From NCBI GenBank assembly GCA_030704665.1, contig JAUYID010000009.1:394460-458459 (forward strand): a stretch of 64,000 bases of DNA, given 5' to 3'. The notes under the pieces are model-generated. The model was not told the DNA's origin. It saw only the letters and a program-made list of their open reading frames with translations, and made no database searches. Source of the stretch: a bacterium. GTDB lineage: Bacteria > Patescibacteriota > Microgenomatia > Woykebacterales > RBG-16-39-9b. Positions within the stretch are counted from its first letter, which is position 1, and the number at the start of each line of letters is the position of its first letter. The position numbers and the translations under genes are program-made. Of this stretch, positions 2,842-44,706 are shown piece after piece.

Positions 2842-3734
2842 AAGAGAGCAAAAGTCGAGTAGAGGAGTAGAGTCAAAACGGAAGAGGGGTAGATTTTTTG
2901 GAGCGCAAAAGTGATGCACTATGATATAGTAAGTTTCCACGTGTGGAAAGTATTAATACTATAGGGTCTTAAACAATCTTTACAAATCCCTGACAAAACC
3001 AAAAAAACCCGAAAGAGACTTCGTCTGACGCCCACGCGGAGAGAGTGCTAACCCCTTCTCTGTGGATAAGTGGCTCTCTTTTTACCACCTTCACAGTCTG
3101 TTTGGCTAGAAAATTTAATTTTTAGCCTGGTCTAGTGGGCTATTTTTATCCCCAACAAACCTAGCTGGTAATTATGAGTTTAGCCTGAAAATGAGGCTAA
3201 AAGCAAGGCGCTGTAAGGGCCCAGGACGGCTTTTAGATCCAAGAGATGCATCAGTAGTCGTCCGGACTTTAAATTTTAAACAAAAAAGACAGTAGGAGTT
3301 TTAGAAGTGTAGTGTCTCCTTGTTTTTCGAAGGTCTAATCTTCCACACACTCTTCTCTCGAAGCCGAATAAGCCTGGCTGAGGCTAGAGAGGTTCAGATT
3401 GTGATTACGTCGCACAATGTATCTTATCCGACGTAATCTAAGGCCCCCTGCCGAGATAGATTTTTATTTTCTTCTTTCTTCCCTTTCGTTGATTGAACTA
3501 AATTCTTCAGTAAAATCTAACGCGAATCCCCTCTAAGTTCATTCTCTAAAAATCTCTTAGTTTTACTTTAGATAAAAATCGATATTCTGGCTGACAGAAC
3601 GGTCTTTATTTGCTTATTACTTTGGGTGGGTATCCTCTACCACCCCGCTTTTGTCAGACTAAAACTAGAAAATAGATTGATAAATCAAGAAAAAAGCTCA
3701 TATTTAGCCTCAAGATTAAATTAAAGGGATAATT

Positions 3735-3778
3735 GAGAAAAAAAGCCGCGGAGGCCTAAAGGGCAGGTTTGCTTTAGG
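3735..3778 (-). terminator. putative intrinsic terminator of the LPXTG-protein gene
   Basis: On the minus strand an 8-bp stem (CCTAAAG...CTTTAGG) spans the stop codon and is followed after about 10 nt by TTTTTTTCTC. Confidence 0.4.
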
Positions 3779-4562
3779 CGAGGAAACGAGTTCGCAGTTT
3801 TCCTTCAGAGCTTCTTAACAAAAGTCCTGCTGCAAGGGTCAGTAAGACTGGAAGTACGGGAAGGCTGCTACCAGTCACAGGTAGACCACCGACATTTTCT
3901 CCGAGGACTGTCCCGGGTGTTTTAGGAGTTCCCGGCTCTTCTGGATTAGTTCCTGGTGTTGGAGTAGGTCCGACGTTGTTGTTATTGCCAGTATTTCCGA
4001 TCCCGATAGTGAAATTGATATCACCAGTGCTGATCGTTGCTTCCCCAGTATTTTTATCAGCTTCGTTGTTACCAGTGTTCAGATCAACCTGGGCTTGGTT
4101 GTTTATGTTCATCACGTTACTCTGATTGAGAGTCAAGGAGTTGTTTATATCAACCCTTGAAGTGTTGGTTGAGTTAGCACCGGTCTGGGTATTGGCGGAT
4201 GATGACGCTTCTGAGCTTCCACAACACGTTGGTGGGTTGATGTTGCTGCTGTTGAGTGTGTTATTTACAGTCAGAGAACCGTTGATGTCTCCGGTAGTGA
4301 TCGAGGCATCCCCAGTGTTTTTGCTAGCTTGGTTGCCTCCAGTGTTGGCGCTGATTTTGATTGTATTAACTACATTTGCTTCATTGTTTGAAGAAATAGT
4401 AACTTGGTTTGATGTTTCAACAGAGGCGGTATTTTCAGAATCAGCTCCAGTAGTGTCGTTGGTAGCGCTGTCAGCCAAAGCTAACGGTGCGGTCAGCAAC
4501 AGGGCTGCGATCGTGGAGCCGATAAGGGAGCTTTTTACAACTAGATTTTTCGTATGTACCAC
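3774..4562 (-). CDS. secreted cell-surface repeat protein with C-terminal LPXTG sortase anchor
   Basis: Signal peptide (LLLTAPLALADSA), then N/T/G/S-rich repeats of the form ANTGGNQASKNTGDASITTGD. The C-terminus is LPVTG plus a hydrophobic stretch plus RSSEGKLRTRF, a classical cell-wall sorting signal. Confidence 0.75.
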   Translation of the reverse strand: MVHTKNLVVKSSLIGSTIAALLLTAPLALADSATNDTTGADSENTASVETSNQVTISSNNEANVVNTIKISANTGGNQASKNTGDASITTGDINGSLTVNNTLNSSNINPPTCCGSSEASSSANTQTGANSTNTSRVDINNSLTLNQSNVMNINNQAQVDLNTGNNEADKNTGEATISTGDINFTIGIGNTGNNNNVGPTPTPGTNPEEPGTPKTPGTVLGENVGGLPVTGSSLPVLPVLLTLAAGLLLRSSEGKLRTRFLA

Positions 4563-6769
4563 CTCCCTCTGACCAATTTCAGAATTGTTTGGGCAGAGGC
4601 GGCAGTAATAATCAAGATAAAGATAAGGTTGCGCAGTGAGAGTCCACCCGAGGCTTGGTTGACGACCTGAGTAATATTTGGTGTTCCAAAGTTGTCCGAA
4701 ACACCCATGACTAAGGATTTTTTGTCTTGGCTTTCGGCACTGGCGCTCTGCTCGCCCGTGCTGCCGGGGTTGGAACCTGTATTGGAAGATCCTGTTGTGG
4801 TGTTACTACCCAGGATAGAGTTGATCACTTTATTGCTTGGGTTGTTTTTTCCGTGATCTAAGCCAGTAGAGCCAATGTTTTCTGCTGGCTTGCCGTCAGG
4901 AAAGATATCCCCATTGAAGCTTCCAAAAATATTCACAATACTTACGATCATACGAGAACCTAGAAAAGTGTTGTTCAGTATATTGAGGACGTTGGCAGCG
5001 ACGTTGACGTCTCCGGTCTTGATCGAAGCATTGCCGGTGTTCTTGCTAGCTTGGTTGCCTCCAGTGTTGGCGTTGATCTGAATATTGTTGTCAACAGTAC
5101 CTGAGTTGTTGACTTGAACAGTATTTGTGTTGTTGGCGCTAGAGTCAGCACTGTTGCTGCTGTCAGCTCCTGTTTGGTTGTTGACTGCCATCAGAGAGCC
5201 GTCAGGACCAACTACAAAGCTAAAGAAAGGAGAAGCTACTCCATCCTCATTCAGACTCATCAACTGACCAGTCCAGTTACCTAAATTGTTTACCAAAACG
5301 AGCCAGAGAGTACCGTCACTTCCAGCGGTGGTAGTGTTGGCGATGGTTGCTGTTTTAAGGTTGGCGTTGACATCCCCAGTTTGAATACTGGAGGTCCCAG
5401 TGTTTTTGTCAGCTGTATTATCACCAGTGTTGGCGTTGAGATTTATTCCGTTCAAGACGTTGGCGGTGTTGTTTACTCCAAGAGTTGAGCTGTTGTTAGT
5501 TGAGCTATCGGCAAAGTTGGCTGAATCGGAACCAGTAGTTAAGTTGGCGGCATTGAGGCTTTCCGGTGAAAAGATTGTCGAAGTTTCTCCGACTGGGGGT
5601 GGATTGAAGACAATATCTCCATTTAAGTTTCCGAAAACGTTGACTACCCCAAGCAAGAGTTCACCGGCTCCACCCAGAAAAGTGTTGTTCAAAAAGTTGA
5701 TCACGTTGACGGCAACATTGGCATCTCCCGTAGTAATCGTCCCGTCACCGGTGTTTTTACTGGCTGAGTTGTCACCGGTGTTGGCATCTAGAGTCGTAGA
5801 GTTGACCAGATTGCCGTTGTTGTCGATAAAGTAAGTGTTTGAAGTGTTGGAAGTTGCGGAAGCAGTGTTGCTACTCTCAGCTCCGGTGGTGTCGTTGCTA
5901 CTGGCTTGGCCAGTTCCAGCGGCAGTTTGGAGAACTTGAAGATCATCGAAATTCAAGATTAAGTCTCCGCTTTGATCATCCATGACATTGAAAACTTGAG
6001 CTCCCACGTTAACATTGTTACCAACGTTGATGGCGGTGAGAGTCAGGTCAGCATCCCCAGTAACAACCGAGCCGTCGCCAGTATTTTTGTCGGCAGTATT
6101 GTCACCAGAATTGGCTGTCAAAGTGGTCAGATTTTGTACATCGAGGTCGTTGTCAATATAAACATCAGTTGTGCTGTTGCTTTCTGAAGAAGCGTCGTTT
6201 TCCGAACCTGCTCCAGTGTTGGAATTGCTTGCCTCACCACTGACAGCGAGACAAGTTGAGATCGCACAAATGCTTGGATCCATTGCTCCAATTGAAACTT
6301 TGTTTGCATCTGAGCTTAGGTTGGCGACCAAACCTGCATCTCCGCTGACAACCGAGCCGTCGCCAGTGTTTTTATCTGAGCTGCTCTCACCGGTGTTCGC
6401 TTCCCCACTTGTAACGTTGAGGAGACTAGCGGTGTTGTCGACGTTGACCGAAGTATCAGAGTTAGTTGTGGTACTAGCGCTATTGGTTGAATCTGCTCCG
6501 GTGTTGGAATTGGTAGCGGCCGCGGCGGCCGCGGCTGCCTCGGCGGCGGCAGCTTCGGCTTCAGCCTTGCGGGCAGCTCTTTCGGCGGTCCATTTTTCGT
6601 ACCAGTTGTTTGGGTCATTCCAATCGATTTGGCTGCTGTCAGTTGTCGTAGTCGTAGTAGTGCCCGTCTCTCCTTCTGCTAGTACTGGGGCAACCAAACC
6701 AAAGCTTGAATAAGCTACCAAGAGTAAGCTGAGTAAAAGGCTAATTGTTTTTTGACTAAATTTTTTCAT
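4541..6769 (-). CDS. large secreted repeat protein (742 aa), paralogous to the neighbouring genes
   Basis: Signal peptide (LLLSLLLVAYSSFGLVAPVLAEG), a poly-Thr and Ala-rich linker, then at least 6 copies of the NTGDNxAxKNTGDGSVxTGDA unit alternating with NVxNxLNNTFLG segments. A C-terminal hydrophobic segment is followed by a basic tail. Confidence 0.75.
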   Translation of the reverse strand: MKKFSQKTISLLLSLLLVAYSSFGLVAPVLAEGETGTTTTTTTDSSQIDWNDPNNWYEKWTAERAARKAEAEAAAAEAAAAAAAATNSNTGADSTNSASTTTNSDTSVNVDNTASLLNVTSGEANTGESSSDKNTGDGSVVSGDAGLVANLSSDANKVSIGAMDPSICAISTCLAVSGEASNSNTGAGSENDASSESNSTTDVYIDNDLDVQNLTTLTANSGDNTADKNTGDGSVVTGDADLTLTAINVGNNVNVGAQVFNVMDDQSGDLILNFDDLQVLQTAAGTGQASSNDTTGAESSNTASATSNTSNTYFIDNNGNLVNSTTLDANTGDNSASKNTGDGTITTGDANVAVNVINFLNNTFLGGAGELLLGVVNVFGNLNGDIVFNPPPVGETSTIFSPESLNAANLTTGSDSANFADSSTNNSSTLGVNNTANVLNGINLNANTGDNTADKNTGTSSIQTGDVNANLKTATIANTTTAGSDGTLWLVLVNNLGNWTGQLMSLNEDGVASPFFSFVVGPDGSLMAVNNQTGADSSNSADSSANNTNTVQVNNSGTVDNNIQINANTGGNQASKNTGNASIKTGDVNVAANVLNILNNTFLGSRMIVSIVNIFGSFNGDIFPDGKPAENIGSTGLDHGKNNPSNKVINSILGSNTTTGSSNTGSNPGSTGEQSASAESQDKKSLVMGVSDNFGTPNITQVVNQASGGLSLRNLIFILIITAASAQTILKLVRGRWYIRKI

Positions 6770-6906
6770 TTGTTTTTCTATTCTTTCCTGGGCGGTTAAA
6801 AACCCACTTTTCCTTTTGTAAAAAATGTACTTTTAACTACCCGACCTCTTCCCGGCTCCCTGTCTCTCCGGAAAACCCGGAGAGACAAAGGGATCGGTAA
6901 CAGACA

Positions 6907-8070
6907 TTAGTTGCTGCTGTTTACATTTACGTCTACATCGACGTTGTTGTTGCTGCCATCAGCCTCGTCTCCGTTAACGGAGTTTTCGTTGGCACTGCTG
7001 GAAACTTCAACATCAACATCAGCATCACCAGTGTGCTGGTCGTCAGCTGTGTTTTTGTTGGTTTCGTTGTCACCAGTGTTTGCACTGATTTTTCCGCTGT
7101 TCTTCACGTTGGCCTCGTTGTCTTGATCGATGTCAAGATCGTTGTCAGCAGAAGCTTCAGCTTTGTTTTTTGAATCCGCACCAGTTTTTTCATTGGCGGC
7201 TTCGAGTTCAACATCACAGCAAGCGTCGACGTTTGCTGAGTTGGAGTTGGCATTGTTTTCAATTCCAACCTCAACTTTAGCGTCACCAGTGTCGACAGAG
7301 CCTTCACCAGTGTTTTTGTTTGCTTCGTTGTCTCCGGTGTTGGCTTCAACGTCTACGTCATTGCAGAGGTTGGCGTCGTTATCTTGGTCGATATCGACAT
7401 CGGTTTCTACAGATGCGTCGGCGTAGTTTTCAGAATCAGCTCCAGTGGTGTCATTGGAAGCAGAAACACTTCCACCGTCACCCCCGCTGATGCTAACTGA
7501 ATTCTCGTTTACCATATTGGCGATGCTGACAACTACTTCAGCGTCTCCAGTGGTGACGTTACCTTCACCAGTGTTTTTGTTTGCTTCGTTGTCTCCGGTG
7601 TTTGAGCTGACACTTACGCTGTTGAAAACGTTGGCCTCGTTGTCTTGATCGACATCGATGTCGTTGTCAACTGAAGCTTCAGCAATGTTCTTGGAGTCGG
7701 CACCAGTTTTGGTGTTAGAAGCTGAGACATCACCAGTACAAGCTCCACAGTTGTCAAGACTGACAGTGTTGGAGTTGGCGGTGTTGCTCAAAGAAACTGT
7801 GACGGAAGCGTCACCAGTGGTGACGGAACCTTCGCCAGTGTTCTTGTTTGCTGTGTTTCCACCAGTGTTTGAAGAGACGCTAATGTTGTTTACAATATTA
7901 GCTTCATTCTTCTGATCGATATCTACATCGTTATTAGTGCTGACTTCCGCTTCATTGTAGGAACCGTAACCCGTAGTGTCGTTGCTAGCAGTTCCCGCCA
8001 AAGCTGGAGTCAAAGAGAAAGCAAGGGATGCTACCGCAGATGCTGCAGCAGCAATTACTTTTTTGTTCAT
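6907..8070 (-). CDS. secreted acidic repeat protein (387 aa), same repeat family
   Basis: Signal peptide (ASLAFSLTPALAGTAS) and four copies of SSNTGDNEANKNTGEGxVTTGDAxVxV. Asp/Asn rich, consistent with calcium binding. SD AAAGGGGGTG lies upstream of the ATG. Confidence 0.7.
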   Translation of the reverse strand: MNKKVIAAAASAVASLAFSLTPALAGTASNDTTGYGSYNEAEVSTNNDVDIDQKNEANIVNNISVSSNTGGNTANKNTGEGSVTTGDASVTVSLSNTANSNTVSLDNCGACTGDVSASNTKTGADSKNIAEASVDNDIDVDQDNEANVFNSVSVSSNTGDNEANKNTGEGNVTTGDAEVVVSIANMVNENSVSISGGDGGSVSASNDTTGADSENYADASVETDVDIDQDNDANLCNDVDVEANTGDNEANKNTGEGSVDTGDAKVEVGIENNANSNSANVDACCDVELEAANEKTGADSKNKAEASADNDLDIDQDNEANVKNSGKISANTGDNETNKNTADDQHTGDADVDVEVSSSANENSVNGDEADGSNNNVDVDVNVNSSN

Positions 8071-8357: not shown

Positions 8358-8387
8358 ATTATAAGTTGCTTTCAAAAAACTTGTCAA
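8358..8387 (-). promoter_or_regulatory. sigma70-type promoter TTGACA-18-TATAAT (minus strand)
   Basis: Exact consensus -35 and -10 hexamers on the minus strand. The promoter points toward the 8153-8224 hairpin and the repeat-protein gene at 8070. Confidence 0.5.
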
Positions 8388-8414: not shown

Positions 8415-8627
8415 CTATTTTAATTTGTTAATAGGCCTTGAGTAAACGTAATTAGGTCTTTTTGCTTCGGGTTTATTTGTTTTCCTGATGATTCTTTCGG
8501 TGATTTGGACGACTCGGCCTGATTCTATGTAGATTTCAATTGAACCAAATTCTTTGTTGGCCACGGCCATCTTTATCTCTTCGAGAAGACGGTCGCTTAT
8601 TGGACTAGTGGAAAACTCATCAATCAT
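8415..8627 (-). CDS. DUF2292 (YezD-like) small protein
   Basis: 70 aa. GSIEIYIESGRVVQITERI matches the conserved core of the YezD/DUF2292 family. Confidence 0.55.
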   Translation of the reverse strand: MIDEFSTSPISDRLLEEIKMAVANKEFGSIEIYIESGRVVQITERIIRKTNKPEAKRPNYVYSRPINKLK

Positions 8628-8751: not shown

Positions 8752-9312
8752 CTATCTAAAGTTTATTTGTACGGCTTGTTTTTCCCCACGTATTTCACCT
8801 AGTTCGATGGTGAAGTTTTTTTCATTACGGTCGATGACGAAAGCAACGTTGCTTCTTTTGACTGAAATTGGTCTGACTTCGACGTTGCCTTGAGAAACAC
8901 TCGGAGCGATGCGTTTGCCATCAGAGCGGACGAGACGAAACAAGTCTAGTGGTGTGGTGTAAAGTGGAACTTGATATTTGTTTTCTACTTCAAGGTAAAT
9001 AACGATAAAGGTCTTGCCGTTTCGGGCGGTGGCGTTTTGGCCCTGAACCAAAACTTTGTCGGTGATTTGGGCGTTGGTAAGTTTAATCGGAAGAGTTCCG
9101 TCGGTTGGTCGCCCATCTTTTGTGCGACCAATACTGTCAAAATTTTTCCCAATGTTGACTGAGGTTGAACTTGAAGAAGATCCGGTGTCACTTCCGATTG
9201 CGCCAAGAGCGGTCTTGCCAATGAAAAAGACGATGATGAGCCCGACAATTGCCAAAACTATTTTGCCGCGTTTTCTTGATAGAGTTTTTACTTTTTCGGT
9301 AAGTCTTGTCAT
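8752..9312 (-). CDS. membrane-anchored DUF4352-like protein
   Basis: Basic N-terminus, one TM helix, an S-rich linker and a C-terminal beta-rich domain of the kind seen in DUF4352 lipoprotein-like proteins. Confidence 0.45.
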   Translation of the reverse strand: MTRLTEKVKTLSRKRGKIVLAIVGLIIVFFIGKTALGAIGSDTGSSSSSTSVNIGKNFDSIGRTKDGRPTDGTLPIKLTNAQITDKVLVQGQNATARNGKTFIVIYLEVENKYQVPLYTTPLDLFRLVRSDGKRIAPSVSQGNVEVRPISVKRSNVAFVIDRNEKNFTIELGEIRGEKQAVQINFR

Positions 9313-13683: not shown

Positions 13684-14328
13684 TTATCGTCTAATTTTAA
13701 TCAAGCAAGGGTCTTCCAAATCGCTGTAAGTAGTGGCATACATCCCAAAGATGAAGTCAGAAATTAAATATTTGTGTTCTCCTCCCCTTTTATCCCAAAG
13801 GGGGTCGTTGACGTAGATATGTGTTTCGTCTATTCCAGTGACTACGTTAAAATGAAAATTGAATCTTGGTTTTTCTGAAGTGAGAAACTGGGAAGTTAGA
13901 AGTGCAATTGGCGGTTGAGCCTTTTCCAATTCTGCTCGTATATCTTCGACTGTGGGGACTCGAACGGTGACTTTCCCACCCTCTTCGAGAAATTTGAGGG
14001 TAAATTTTAGCGAGGCTTTCTCTTGTCTTTTCTTCTTCTTTAAAAGCATCTCTTCTAATCTTTTGCGTATTTGATCTTTACTCAGATCAACATCTTTTAG
14101 AGTGTAAAGAGCGGGGTTGAAAGTAACCATTTCGACCTTAAAACCAAGCTTAATTAAATGAGAGCCAAGTTGAGCGCAATAAGTACCGTTTTTGAAAACT
14201 CGAATGGACCTTTTTAAATCTGAAAAAGTGGTTGGCAATTTATAGTATCTAGTCAGCATATTTAGTACTGCTAGACCACAATCTTCAGAACCCTTTTCTT
14301 GTCGAACCAGAGGGACATTAAATTTCAT
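13684..14328 (-). CDS. peptidase C39-like (papain-fold cysteine peptidase) domain protein
   Basis: QEKGSEDCGLAVLNML supplies the catalytic Q and C, and HFNVVTGIDETHIYVNDP the catalytic His, as in C39 bacteriocin-processing-type domains. Confidence 0.6.
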   Translation of the reverse strand: MKFNVPLVRQEKGSEDCGLAVLNMLTRYYKLPTTFSDLKRSIRVFKNGTYCAQLGSHLIKLGFKVEMVTFNPALYTLKDVDLSKDQIRKRLEEMLLKKKKRQEKASLKFTLKFLEEGGKVTVRVPTVEDIRAELEKAQPPIALLTSQFLTSEKPRFNFHFNVVTGIDETHIYVNDPLWDKRGGEHKYLISDFIFGMYATTYSDLEDPCLIKIRR

Positions 14329-27196: not shown

Positions 27197-27760
27197 TTAG
27201 GGTAGAGACCCTTCGTAGATGACAGCGTAAGTGTAGCGACCGCTCTCGGCGATGACAACCCCAATTCCGATCCGCTCGTAGTGCGGATTGAGAGTGTTGG
27301 CCCGATGAGGCAGACTCTCCCAGAGCATCTTTGCCGCACGAGTGGCCGTTCCTTCGATTGGCCAGTTGTTCCAAGCCAGATTCTCCCCCGCCCAAGCGTG
27401 TCCTATTCGCGCTTGGTCCATGAGACAGACGAAGTTGCAACCATCCGGTGGTGCGTGACCGAAGTAGTGATTGAGCGCCATGTCTTCGGCTCGATACTGA
27501 GCTACTATACTCAGAGTTGGATCGAGTCGGAGCGCGTTTCTACCAGTCCTCATTCTTTGTTCGTTGAGTAGAAGAAAGAGCTGGTCGGCCGGGTTTGCGG
27601 GTGGTGCTGGAGTCGCTGTTGGTAAGACAACCACAGTTGCGGTTGGTACCGGCTCGACTGTTGCTCCCGCGACCGCAGCTTCTTTCTTGGCTTCAGAACG
27701 GCAGGCCAGAGTCAGGAGCATCAGCCCCGTTGCGACGGCAACTATAAGTTTAGAGCGCAT
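27197..27760 (-). CDS. secreted CAP/SCP/PR-1-domain protein
   Basis: Signal peptide with LTLAC. LNEQRMRTGRNALRLDP...HYFGH...GENLAW are CAP-domain conserved motifs. Confidence 0.7.
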   Translation of the reverse strand: MRSKLIVAVATGLMLLTLACRSEAKKEAAVAGATVEPVPTATVVVLPTATPAPPANPADQLFLLLNEQRMRTGRNALRLDPTLSIVAQYRAEDMALNHYFGHAPPDGCNFVCLMDQARIGHAWAGENLAWNNWPIEGTATRAAKMLWESLPHRANTLNPHYERIGIGVVIAESGRYTYAVIYEGSLP

Positions 27761-44013: not shown

Positions 44014-44706
44014 TTATTTCACGGTAATTGGAAAGGTTTGCTCTTCGTAGAAAAAGGTGTAGTTTTTAGTGCTTTTCGGTAGAGACCCAAAAGCTATCTC
44101 ACCACTGATAGTCTCGCCTGGTTGCACACCTTGGTCCGGAATTCGGGTGAACCCAGTCGGTTTGGTGGTGCAATCGGCGGCTCCACCTTCAGTACAGACG
44201 GTTGTCGGTGGGTCGTAAGGGTTGCCGTAGGTGTGGTTTTGGGCATCCTTAAGCTTCATGGCGAACTTTGAATAGTAAAGAGGTTGGTCGGTGTTGTTTT
44301 TGATGTCCAAAGACATGATTATCTCGAGAGTGTCATCATCAGCCAGGTTCATAGGATCATCCCATTCTTTGACACTGTTTATTGTGATTGTTAGACTGCC
44401 TATTTCCTGATTGGCACTAGCGGTTGCCTCACGCAAGGCTTTGTCGAGGAAAGCGACTTTGGCAGCTAGATCGGCGTTCTTTTTTTCAACTTTGTTCAGC
44501 TTGTCGAGCTGTGAAGTGAGAGAGTCAACTTTGCTGTTGAGGTCCTTTTTGTCTTGGCTCAAACCAGCGACAAGCCCCTGCTGCCAAAGATAAACTGCAA
44601 TCGCAGCTATTAAAGCGAGAAAAATTGAAACAGCAGCGGTGATGAGAAGGGGTTTTTTGTTCTTGGGAGTTTTGGGCTGGCTCAGGTCAACTGTCTCCAT
44701 GGGCAA
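44014..44706 (-). CDS. membrane-anchored coiled-coil protein with C-terminal DUF4352-like beta domain
   Basis: TM helix, a coiled coil (LNSKVDSLTSQLDKLNKVEKKNADLAAKVAFLDKAL) and then a beta-rich domain. Confidence 0.45.
   Translation of the reverse strand: MPMETVDLSQPKTPKNKKPLLITAAVSIFLALIAAIAVYLWQQGLVAGLSQDKKDLNSKVDSLTSQLDKLNKVEKKNADLAAKVAFLDKALREATASANQEIGSLTITINSVKEWDDPMNLADDDTLEIIMSLDIKNNTDQPLYYSKFAMKLKDAQNHTYGNPYDPPTTVCTEGGAADCTTKPTGFTRIPDQGVQPGETISGEIAFGSLPKSTKNYTFFYEEQTFPITVK

What the first reader, a model, noticed from the sequence alone, without database searches (positions are those of the whole stretch)
3774..8070. Three tandem paralogous secreted proteins built from an unrecognised roughly 28-60-aa NTG-rich repeat, one with an LPXTG anchor
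All three genes have signal peptides and share the unit N-T-G-(D/G)-N-x-A-x-K-N-T-G-(D/E)-(G/A)-S-(V/I)-x-T-G-D-(A/I/V), alternating with N-V-x-N-x-L-N-N-T-F-L-G stretches. The composition is extremely N/T/G/S/D-biased. The smallest protein ends in LPVTG, a hydrophobic segment and a basic tail, which is a sortase substrate. The largest has a poly-Thr linker and a C-terminal TM anchor. I do not recognise the repeat as a named Pfam family. It may be a novel beta-solenoid surface or adhesin module, possibly calcium-binding because the third protein is very Asp-rich. No sortase gene lies within the window.
Basis: partly seen in the sequence, partly recalled or inferred. Interest (0 to 1): 0.7.

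Follow-up and report, generated by a model that had tools for sequence, protein, structure and literature searches.

The report
Sortase-linked beta-sheet surface proteins of CPR bacteria
Three neighbouring genes of an ultra-small (CPR) bacterium encode secreted proteins built from an undescribed ~87-residue all-beta repeat, and they belong to a gene cassette conserved across CPR bacteria, often with its own sortase, that probably builds a fibre or coat on a cell surface whose make-up is unknown.

Summary
Three minus-strand genes (6907-8070, 4541-6769, 3774-4562) encode signal-peptide proteins with 4, 5 and 2 copies of one module. The true period is 87-89 aa, not 28-60. The first protein has no anchor and is very acidic. 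The second ends in a transmembrane helix. The third ends in LPVTG, a hydrophobic segment and a basic tail.

Pfam, NCBIfam and PDB sequence searches find nothing, and all homologues are named "hypothetical". About 2,750 protein clusters carry the module, and those with an organism name are CPR bacteria.

Across 77 related loci the order is conserved: a DUF4352-like membrane protein, the free 4-module protein, a strong RNA hairpin (51 of 52 loci), the membrane-anchored protein, then the protein with a sorting signal. In 30 loci a sortase gene lies immediately downstream.

Best reading: a surface assembly in which an abundant free subunit stacks onto two anchored paralogues. That the proteins are secreted and two of them anchored is well supported. 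Co-assembly is inferred, not shown.

The parts
8752..9312 (-). DUF4352-like protein (186 aa) with an N-terminal membrane anchor. It is a conserved upstream member of the cassette.
   Evidence: Pfam PF11611, E 1.8e-6, above the cutoff. A homologue lies within 1.5 kb upstream on the same strand of the C-like gene in 49 of 54 related loci.
8415..8627 (-). Small DUF2292 protein (70 aa), a frequent upstream neighbour.
   Evidence: Pfam PF10055, E 6.9e-6. It is found immediately upstream of the C-like gene in 17 of 54 loci.
8358..8387 (-). Sigma-70-like promoter, TTGACA-18-TATAAT, about 290 nt upstream of the C start codon.
   Evidence: 12 of 12 consensus matches. A strong Shine-Dalgarno sequence, AAAGGGGGTGA, lies 9 nt before the ATG. 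This is a consensus match only; function is not shown.
6907..8070 (-). Gene C: 387-aa secreted protein with no anchor. Signal peptide 1-25, then four modules with cores at 7756-7989, 7489-7722, 7228-7461 and 6970-7200. Very acidic. Proposed major subunit.
   Evidence: AlphaFold pLDDT 83.6, all-beta. 336 homologues.
6846..6903 (-). Intercistronic RNA stem-loop immediately after the stop codon of C.
   Evidence: dG -34.6 kcal/mol, z -4.6. A hairpin of dG <= -20 occupies the same position in 51 of 52 related loci, against 24% of 119 control intergenic regions.
4541..6769 (-). Gene B: 742-aa protein. Signal peptide 1-31, Thr7 run, Ala/Glu helix 53-79, five modules (cores 6284-6517, 5999-6232, 5669-5902, 5318-5551, 4955-5188) with beta insertions between them, disordered stalk 631-711, and a C-terminal transmembrane helix (DNA 4547-4636) with a basic tail.
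   Evidence: Identical to GenBank MDP2671264.1, 'hypothetical protein'.
3774..4562 (-). Gene A: 262-aa protein. Signal peptide 1-30, two modules (cores 4233-4466 and 3966-4199), a Pro/Thr/Gly wall-spanning linker and a cell-wall sorting signal. Its start overlaps the end of B by 22 nt.
3777..3884 (-). Cell-wall sorting signal of A: LPVTG (3870-3884), 18 hydrophobic residues and the basic tail RSSEGKLRTRFLA.
   Evidence: It is the only such signal in the window. Orthologues sit directly upstream of a sortase in 30 loci.
3743..3757 (-). Weak terminator-like hairpin plus a T7 run, 17 nt after the stop codon of A.
   Evidence: Pattern match. Folding energy is only -6.5 kcal/mol with z 0.2, so support is weak.

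Best explanation
The three genes are the core of a cell-envelope cassette conserved in CPR bacteria. All three proteins are exported by Sec. All three are built from one ~87-residue all-beta module: two long strands ('arms' of about 31 residues) joined by a Gly/Asn/Thr-rich tip, NTG-x-N-x-A-x-KNTG-x-GS-V-x-TGD.

The arms of one module pack face to face. AlphaFold stacks successive modules into a flattened two-sheet parallel beta-solenoid.

A (2 modules) is cleaved at LPVTG and linked covalently to peptidoglycan by a sortase encoded elsewhere in this genome. B (5 modules) is held in the membrane by a C-terminal helix below an ~80-residue flexible stalk.

C (4 modules) has no anchor and is highly acidic. 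It is promoter-proximal and followed by a conserved RNA hairpin. I read it as the abundant major subunit, kept on the cell by stacking its open beta-sheet edges onto the homologous modules of A and B, so extending a fibre or sheet on the cell surface.

Shown here: the genes, the module, the signals, the conserved cassette, the sortase linkage and the arm-to-arm contact. Predicted: the solenoid fold. Inferred: one module per rung, co-assembly, and C as the major subunit.
For: Gene and module anatomy.

The family is large and unannotated. 336 and 505 homologues were found, all 'hypothetical' and without Pfam domains except one B-like homologue (P0228) that carries PF00404. 2,751 clusters at 50% identity carry 2-10 modules each.

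Independent coevolution on 1,078-2,065 modules. The strongest couplings form an antiparallel ladder between columns 24-40 and 61-76. They show size-swap pairs (A-A, G-L, L-G) and polar/apolar swaps (Q-N against I-V) and involve inward-facing positions only. These contacts are intra-module: z is 13 within a module against 1 across modules. Arm 2 of module k couples to arm 1 of module k+1 more than the reverse, as successive rungs would.

Same-column identity is higher for adjacent modules than for modules two apart only at inward or tip columns.

Cassette. The order C-like, B-like, A-like recurs in most of the 77 related loci. In 30 loci the sorting-signal paralogue is -55 to +137 nt upstream of a sortase. 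All 7 sampled sortases pass the Pfam cutoff. The sorting-motif type (LPxTG, or GLSxTS in most of the other cases) largely follows the sortase subfamily.

A DUF4352-like gene lies upstream in 49 of 54 loci.

A hairpin follows the C-like gene in 51 of 52 loci, against 24% of controls. A perfect promoter precedes C in the window.

C-like proteins consist of modules and little else and have no anchor or wall-binding domain. A-like proteins have only 2-3 modules, too few to make a stable stack alone (inference).
Against: No result here shows that the three proteins touch each other or polymerise.

Foldseek found no significant global match.

Same-column similarity between modules is confounded by concerted evolution.

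The dense Asp face of C should repel like subunits unless cations bridge them.

The fourth module of C has a degenerate tip (KNTADDQ-HTGD), which could cap the stack.

No sortase is in the window, and the rest of the 938-kb genome could not be scanned.

The terminator after A is weak.
Confidence: 0.45

Rival explanations
1. The three proteins are independent, monomeric surface stalks or adhesins. Each projects a rigid beta-solenoid from the cell, or is released in the case of C, to bind a host cell or a substrate. The paralogues do not co-assemble.
Against: Module number and gene order are almost fixed across very divergent CPR lineages, unlike fast-evolving host-specific adhesins. C and A have no head or ligand-binding domain beyond the modules. 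A free adhesin with no anchor does not help the cell attach. A 2-module solenoid is unlikely to be stable alone. The conserved hairpin after C suggests graded stoichiometry within one complex.
Confidence: 0.25
2. The modules are calcium-dependent (or other cation-dependent) beta-rolls analogous to RTX repeats. They are exported unfolded and fold outside the cell on cation binding. Their main role is cation-bridged lattice formation (as in the S-layer protein RsaA), or cation or mineral binding by the poly-Asp face of C. This can coexist with the best explanation.
Against: The RTX consensus GGxGxDxUx is absent, and Pfam HemolysinCabind does not hit at E<=1. No Ca2+ ligand geometry could be checked. 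B and A are far less acidic.
Confidence: 0.15
3. This is a classical sortase-polymerised Gram-positive pilus, in which a class C sortase joins subunits covalently through LPXTG-to-lysine isopeptide bonds.
For: A sortase lies adjacent in 30 related loci. The LPxTG-type sortases score best, though weakly, against the class C model.
Against: Only one of the three paralogues has a sorting signal. The sortases reach 48-69 bits against a class C cutoff of 160. No pilin-type (SpaA/CnaB) Pfam domains are present. The only module lysine (KNTG) is invariant in this window but variable across the family.
Confidence: 0.04
4. These are ice-binding or antifreeze-type solenoids.
Confidence: 0.02

Closest known systems
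Curli (CsgA major subunit, CsgB surface-bound nucleator)
   Different: There is no sequence relationship: Pfam Curlin_rpt gives no hit and hhalign against CsgA gives probability below 1%. The curli rung is about 22 aa, while the repeating unit here is 87 aa with 31-residue strands. Curli needs the diderm CsgEFG export machinery. Here export is by Sec, and anchoring is by sortase or a transmembrane helix in a monoderm-type envelope.
Streptomyces chaplins (long ChpA-C with an LAXTG sorting signal, short secreted ChpD-H, class E sortases). From my own knowledge.
   Same: The system logic is the same. Paralogues share one domain. Some are sortase-anchored to the wall and some are secreted free. 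They are thought to co-assemble into a surface amyloid layer. Conserved Cys pairs are present in both.
   Different: There is no homology: no Pfam chaplin hit. The chaplin domain is about 40 aa and hydrophobic, whereas this module is 87 aa and very polar or acidic. This system has an additional transmembrane-anchored paralogue, a DUF4352-like partner and an intercistronic hairpin. The sortases here reach no class-specific cutoff.
RTX beta-roll proteins (CyaA RTX blocks, RTX adhesins, the S-layer protein RsaA)
   Same: Flattened two-sheet parallel beta-roll. Gly-rich turns with an acidic residue at roughly nine-residue spacing in the tip. Acidic secreted proteins. Local structural matches with low rmsd.
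   Different: The GGxGxDxUx motif is absent and there is no HemolysinCabind hit. There is no type I secretion signal or ABC/MFP/TolC genes; the proteins have Sec signal peptides instead. The long arms have no RTX counterpart.
LPXTG cell-wall-anchored proteins of Gram-positive bacteria, and sortase
   Same: A has the tripartite sorting signal and a Pro/Thr-rich wall-spanning linker. Orthologues are adjacent to sortase genes. Sortase is reported as near-ubiquitous in Microgenomates (PMC6744442).
   Different: The anchor HMMs (Pfam Gram_pos_anchor, TIGR01167) do not score at E<=1. The passenger domain is a new family. Some lineages use variant motifs: LAAAG, LAATG or GLSxTS.
SufB/SufD beta-helix
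   Different: SufBD is a cytoplasmic Fe-S assembly scaffold with helical domains and an ABC ATPase partner. There is no sequence, context or localisation similarity. The resemblance is fold class only.

Membership tests
Curli / Curlin_rpt (PF07012) | Curlin repeat sequence signature (S-x5-Q-x-G-x-G-N-x-A-x3-Q) detectable by profile | tested here: not met
   No Pfam hit at E<=1 for any of the three proteins.
Curli / Curlin_rpt (PF07012) | Two-sheet parallel beta-solenoid of stacked strand-turn-strand repeats | tested here: inconclusive
Curli / Curlin_rpt (PF07012) | csgEFG-type outer-membrane secretion and assembly genes nearby | tested here: not met
   No such domains among the 43 window ORFs scanned or in the annotated related loci.
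Sortase substrate (cell-wall sorting signal) | LPXTG-type pentapeptide followed by a hydrophobic segment and a positively charged C-terminal tail | tested here: met
   A ends in LPVTG-SSLPVLPVLLTLAAGLLL-RSSEGKLRTRFLA. 41 A-like orthologues end in a hydrophobic C-terminal segment, and most carry an LPxTG-type or variant motif.
Sortase substrate (cell-wall sorting signal) | Recognised by curated anchor HMMs (PF00746, TIGR01167) | tested here: not met
   No hit at E<=1 in Pfam or NCBIfam. These short HMMs are trained on Firmicutes and Actinobacteria.
Sortase substrate (cell-wall sorting signal) | A sortase encoded in the same genome | not testable with these tools
   None in the 64-kb window, and the rest of the 938-kb contig could not be read. 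Indirect support: a sortase lies directly downstream of the orthologue in 30 loci. PMC6744442 reports sortase as near-ubiquitous in Microgenomates.
RTX / HemolysinCabind (PF00353) | Tandem GGxGxDxUx nonapeptides | tested here: not met
   No Pfam hit. The tip motif is NTGxNxAxK / NTGxGSVxT / GDA.
RTX / HemolysinCabind (PF00353) | Ca2+ bound between stacked turns | not testable with these tools
   Needs coordinates with ions, or biophysics.
Sortase-assembled pili | All pilins carry LPXTG. Pilin-motif lysine. Class C sortase. | tested here: not met
   Only one of three paralogues has a sorting signal. The sortases score 48-69 bits against a class C cutoff of 160. There are no SpaA/CnaB domains.
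   No Pfam families and no meaningful NCBIfam families at E<=1. A CLIPPER/SdrD_B protein exists in locus L001, but it is a separate downstream gene.
S-layer proteins with SLH or other wall-binding modules | SLH, CWB2, LysM or similar non-covalent wall-binding domain | tested here: not met
   No such Pfam hits in C, B or A.
Chaplins (PF03777) | Chaplin domain | tested here: not met
   No Pfam hit. The resemblance is in system logic only.

The most novel reading that the evidence does not exclude
The cassette encodes the main proteinaceous surface structure of Microgenomates and many other CPR bacteria: a covalently concatenated, amyloid-like cross-beta assembly. Each rung would be a whole 87-residue module, with two ~31-residue strands and an RTX-like tip, several times longer than the coils of the curli and RTX solenoids it most resembles. 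The assembly would be nucleated on a sortase-anchored and a membrane-anchored paralogue and extended by an abundant acidic free subunit. This would identify a major unknown component of the CPR cell envelope and define a new structural class of functional-amyloid-like surface polymer in monoderm-type bacteria.
Probability: 0.2. Interest if true: 0.85.

Novelty: new variant of a known kind. Interest (0 to 1): 0.68.

Why it matters
The make-up of the CPR (Patescibacteria) cell envelope is an open question. A 2017 genome paper states that for all CPR studied the formation and structure of the envelope remain unclear (PMC5220378). Most CPR-enriched protein families are unannotated membrane or surface proteins (PMC6744442).

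This finding gives a concrete, testable candidate:
- a large unannotated family of about 2,750 clusters;
- a nearly fixed multi-gene cassette: DUF4352-like protein, free subunit, hairpin, membrane-anchored paralogue, wall-anchored paralogue, sortase;
- a predicted unusual long-strand beta-solenoid fold.

It also supplies probable natural substrates for the sortases that are near-ubiquitous in Microgenomates. Relatives occur in Saccharibacteria MAGs, a lineage that has cultivated members, so the hypothesis can be tested experimentally. At the least, the family deserves a Pfam/InterPro entry.

Tried and rejected
1. Known-family assignment. Pfam, NCBIfam and PDB sequence searches were empty. Foldseek against PDB gave nothing significant. 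The afdb50 library was unavailable.

2. Curli homology. Rejected by hhalign.

3. A regular solenoid with coils of about 16-18 residues. This was suggested by the spacing of conserved N/G residues (columns 12, 28, 43, 59, 72). I rejected it because the strongest couplings link positions 20-52 residues apart in an antiparallel ladder, and because DSSP gives unbroken 31-residue strands.

4. A contact between the N-terminal 'TGADS' turn and the KNTG tip (couplings 6-54, 7-51, 8-49). I first considered it a possible intermolecular interface. I rejected it because the coupling is equally strong between different modules of one protein, and column 6 is identical in 99% of module pairs within a protein. 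It is therefore a lineage or protein-wide state.

5. Sortase in the window: none found.

6. Phage origin: no relatives in IMG/VR.

7. tRNA or Rfam RNA in the 930-bp gap downstream: none.

8. Exact look-ups of C and A in the protein collection failed, probably because of start-codon differences. Only B is on record.

9. Literature searches for a description of this repeat, or of CPR solenoid, amyloid or S-layer proteins, found nothing relevant. Luef et al. 2015 is not held.

10. Full-length DCA to prove in-register stacking was not attempted, because only 129 four-module sequences were available.
Full report
OBSERVATION. The window carries three consecutive minus-strand ORFs at exactly the reported coordinates. 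I call them C (6907-8070, 387 aa), B (4541-6769, 742 aa) and A (3774-4562, 262 aa, GTG start overlapping the end of B by 22 nt). Each starts with a typical Sec signal peptide ending in ALA or VLA. The quoted motif NTG-x-N-x-A-x-KNTG-x-GS-V-x-TGD occurs 4, 5 and 2 times.

That motif is the conserved tip of a larger module. An HMM built from the 11 copies matches each over 77-78 residues at E 1e-24 to 4e-31. Mean pairwise identity is 44%, and nothing else in the six-frame translation of the window matches. The period is 89/87/87 aa in C and 89 aa in A. In B it is 95-121 aa, because beta-rich insertions follow the modules.

There is no DNA-level tandem repeat. A ends in LPVTG, 18 hydrophobic residues and a basic tail, preceded by a Pro/Thr/Gly linker. 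B has a Thr7 run, an Ala/Glu helix, an ~80-residue low-complexity stalk and a C-terminal transmembrane helix with a basic tail. C has 73 acidic and 15 basic residues. Cysteines sit as CC or CxxC pairs in the linkers between modules.

KNOWN FAMILIES. Pfam-A and NCBIfam give no meaningful hit at E<=1 for any of the three proteins. That includes DUF11/CLIPPER, choice-of-anchor, Curlin_rpt, HemolysinCabind, chaplin, SLH and the LPXTG anchor HMMs. PDB sequences give none.

FAMILY SIZE AND TAXONOMY. C has 336 and B 505 homologues among the candidates scored. All are 'hypothetical' and none has a Pfam domain, except one B-like homologue (P0228) that carries PF00404. The named ones are Microgenomates-group and other CPR bacteria. 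B is 100% identical to GenBank MDP2671264.1 on a 938,369-bp MAG contig.

A profile of the 11 modules finds 2,751 clusters at 50% identity at E<=1e-3 (1,638 at E<=1e-10), with 2-10 modules per protein. In GTDB species representatives, 71 loci were recovered. They come from Woyke-, Davies-, Gottesman-, Woese-, Curtiss-, Levy-, Chisholm-, Roizman- and Doudnabacteria, Saccharibacteria and unnamed Patescibacteria.

Many further records are titled 'uncultured Gammaproteobacteria', but their contigs are small and they carry the same cassette. I take these titles to be placeholders. Two 'Nanoarchaeia' labels and one 'Limnocylindrales' label are unverified. No relatives occur in IMG/VR viral contigs.

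FOLD. With a 56-sequence alignment, AlphaFold2 gives C a mean pLDDT of 83.6 and pTM of 0.75. The model is all-beta, and every module has the same elements: a 31-residue strand segment, two mini-strands in the tip, and a second long segment of 18 plus 6-8 residues. Caveat: the other four models scored 66-45. B (60 sequences) gives pLDDT 68.5 overall but 85-97 in the module cores, with the same 31-residue segments.

COEVOLUTION. As an independent check I ran mean-field DCA on 1,078-2,065 modules extracted from homologues. The top couplings form an antiparallel ladder between columns 24-40 and 61-76. Pair 30-71 shows A-A, A-V, G-L and L-G size swaps. Pair 26-74 shows Q-N against I-V/V-T swaps. 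Only the inward-facing alternate positions are involved, and the signal holds separately in the C-like and B-like subsets.

On concatenated adjacent modules these couplings are strictly intra-module: z is 13 within a module against 1 across modules. Arm 2 of module k couples to arm 1 of module k+1 (z 5.5, 3.9, 3.4) more than arm 1 of k couples to arm 2 of k+1 (3.9, 1.4, 0.1). Same-column identity is higher for adjacent modules than for modules two apart only at inward or tip columns.

CONSERVED CASSETTE. I called ORFs in all 77 fetched loci and searched them with the module HMM and a sortase profile. The recurrent order is as follows.
- A C-like protein: 4 modules, 370-450 aa, signal peptide, no anchor.
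- A B-like protein: 4-5 modules, 700-800 aa, C-terminal transmembrane helix.
- An A-like protein: 2-3 modules, 260-420 aa, sorting signal plus hydrophobic segment.
- A sortase of 165-245 aa.
- Often an opposite-strand free 2-module protein of about 200 aa.

Thirty loci have the sorting-signal paralogue -55 to +137 nt upstream of the sortase, and 38 loci have a sortase within the fetched flanks. All 7 sampled sortases pass the Pfam PF04203 cutoff. They pass the general TIGR01076 cutoff but no class-specific one.

Sorting motifs are LP[VAITMLN]TG, LAAAG/LAATG or GLSxTS. The last type mostly goes with a distinct sortase subfamily, which fits dedicated enzyme-substrate pairs. The window's lineage (Woykebacteria-like loci L001, L007-L011) has a 2-module LPXTG protein and no adjacent sortase.

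Upstream, a DUF4352-like membrane-anchored protein lies within 1.5 kb on the same strand in 49 of 54 loci. A small DUF2292 protein does so in 17. The window has both, at 8752-9312 and 8415-8627.

EXPRESSION SIGNALS. A 12/12 sigma-70 consensus promoter lies at 8387-8358, and a strong Shine-Dalgarno sequence precedes C. Directly after the stop codon of C is a stem-loop of -34.6 kcal/mol, z -4.6. The same position holds a hairpin of <= -20 kcal/mol in 51 of 52 related loci (median -31, median z -6). Only 24% of 119 control same-strand intergenic regions from the same loci do so (median -14.5).

Such promoter-proximal gene-plus-hairpin arrangements are typical of major structural subunits made in excess over minor ones (own knowledge, for example pilin operons). 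The terminator-like site after A is weak.

MECHANISM. Surface export and the two kinds of anchoring follow directly from the sequence signals and the sortase synteny. That the three proteins form one assembly is inferred from five points.
- The cassette and the module numbers are nearly invariant.
- C has no anchor, no wall-binding domain and nothing but modules.
- Stacks of 2-3 modules are too short to be stable alone.
- The solenoid edges appear uncapped.
- The hairpin implies graded stoichiometry.

C-like module regions are 17.9% acidic against 9.6-10.1% for B-like and A-like ones. The outer face of the putative major subunit is therefore a regular Asp array, and cation bridging (RTX-like or RsaA-like) is a plausible co-requirement.

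Rivals are independent adhesins, a primarily Ca2+-binding role, a classical sortase-polymerised pilus (largely excluded) and ice binding (unlikely).

COMPARISON AND NOVELTY. Structurally the nearest known things are curli, Fap-type amyloid subunits, and RTX and SufD beta-rolls. In system logic the nearest is the chaplin system, with sortase-anchored long and free short paralogues. None is homologous, and defining sequence features of each were tested and not met. I found no paper describing the repeat or the cassette.

I classify it as a new variant of a known kind: a sortase-linked surface repeat-protein or fibre system. What is new is a domain family, a possibly unprecedented rung length and a CPR-wide conserved operon. 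It matters because the CPR envelope is uncharacterised (PMC5220378), and sortase is near-ubiquitous in Microgenomates without known dedicated substrates (PMC6744442).

Noticed in passing
window 2842-3773: A 930-bp stretch downstream of gene A has no ORF of 60 aa or more and no convincing small ORF, tRNA or Rfam hit. Read on the minus strand it holds two blocks conserved at the syntenic position in related CPR loci (L009, L010, L011, partly L014). The first, near 3440-3400, is a perfect 8-bp stem with a 12-nt loop (ACGTCGCA-TAAGATACATTG-TGCGACGT). The second, near 3060-2900, has a CCGAAAG..TTTCGGG+T7 terminator-like hairpin, the palindrome TTTCCAC-AC-GTGGAAA and a doubled ACTATATCA. This may be an unannotated small RNA or a regulatory region.
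   Followed up: partly
related loci L023, L024, L028, L037, L046, L048, L052, L055, L059 (C-termini of the A-like genes): Instead of LPXTG, these orthologues carry a (I/V/M)(L/I/M)GL(S/A)xx(S/G) motif, for example ILGLSKTSS, before the hydrophobic segment. They sit next to a distinct sortase subfamily (jackhmmer E about 1e-35 to 1e-42, against 1e-59 to 1e-76 for the LPXTG-type). One of the two sampled members (L023) scores closest to class E. L003, L057 and L064 use LAAAG or LAATG. This may be a new sortase recognition motif.
   Followed up: partly
related loci, for example L013 15631-, L019 9667-, L022 14648-, L036 13844-: A fourth paralogue is encoded on the opposite strand just beyond the sortase in about 20 loci. 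It is about 200 aa with two modules, usually a signal peptide, no anchor and near-neutral charge. It is absent from the window.
   Followed up: no
L009 (OZ246414.1, 915 kb 'chromosome'), L012, L013 and many others; L014 and L025; L072: GenBank titles read 'uncultured Gammaproteobacteria/Pseudomonadales bacterium' for MAG contigs, the largest a 915-kb 'chromosome', that carry the typical CPR cassette. These look like placeholder or wrong taxonomy. Two records are labelled 'Candidatus Nanoarchaeia archaeon' (L025 has the full bacterial cassette with LPITG) and one 'Limnocylindrales'. L017 (Curtissbacteria) and L018 (Doudnabacteria) gave identical ORF coordinates and sizes in my survey.
   Followed up: no
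L006 2759-3190 (same organism, Logan assembly); window 3774-4562: The gene caller used for that assembly missed gene A and called a 143-aa opposite-strand ORF instead. The exact sequences of A and C are not in the protein collection, while B is. The LPXTG member of the trio may therefore be missing or mis-started in public annotation.
   Followed up: no
window 44014-44706 (-) and 27197-27760 (-): A second DUF4352 protein (230 aa) lies elsewhere in the window. A CAP/SCP-domain secreted protein is also present, and CAP-domain genes lie a few kb from the cassette in L001 and L004 as well.
   Followed up: no
window 13684-14328 (-): A stand-alone peptidase C39-like protein (214 aa) has no fused ABC-transporter domain.
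   Followed up: no
L001 14127-16266: In the closest syntenic locus the trio is followed by two further LPNTG proteins, one with SdrD_B/SpaA/CLIPPER domains. Sortase substrates therefore cluster there. These genes are absent from the window, where the ORF-free gap lies instead.
   Followed up: no
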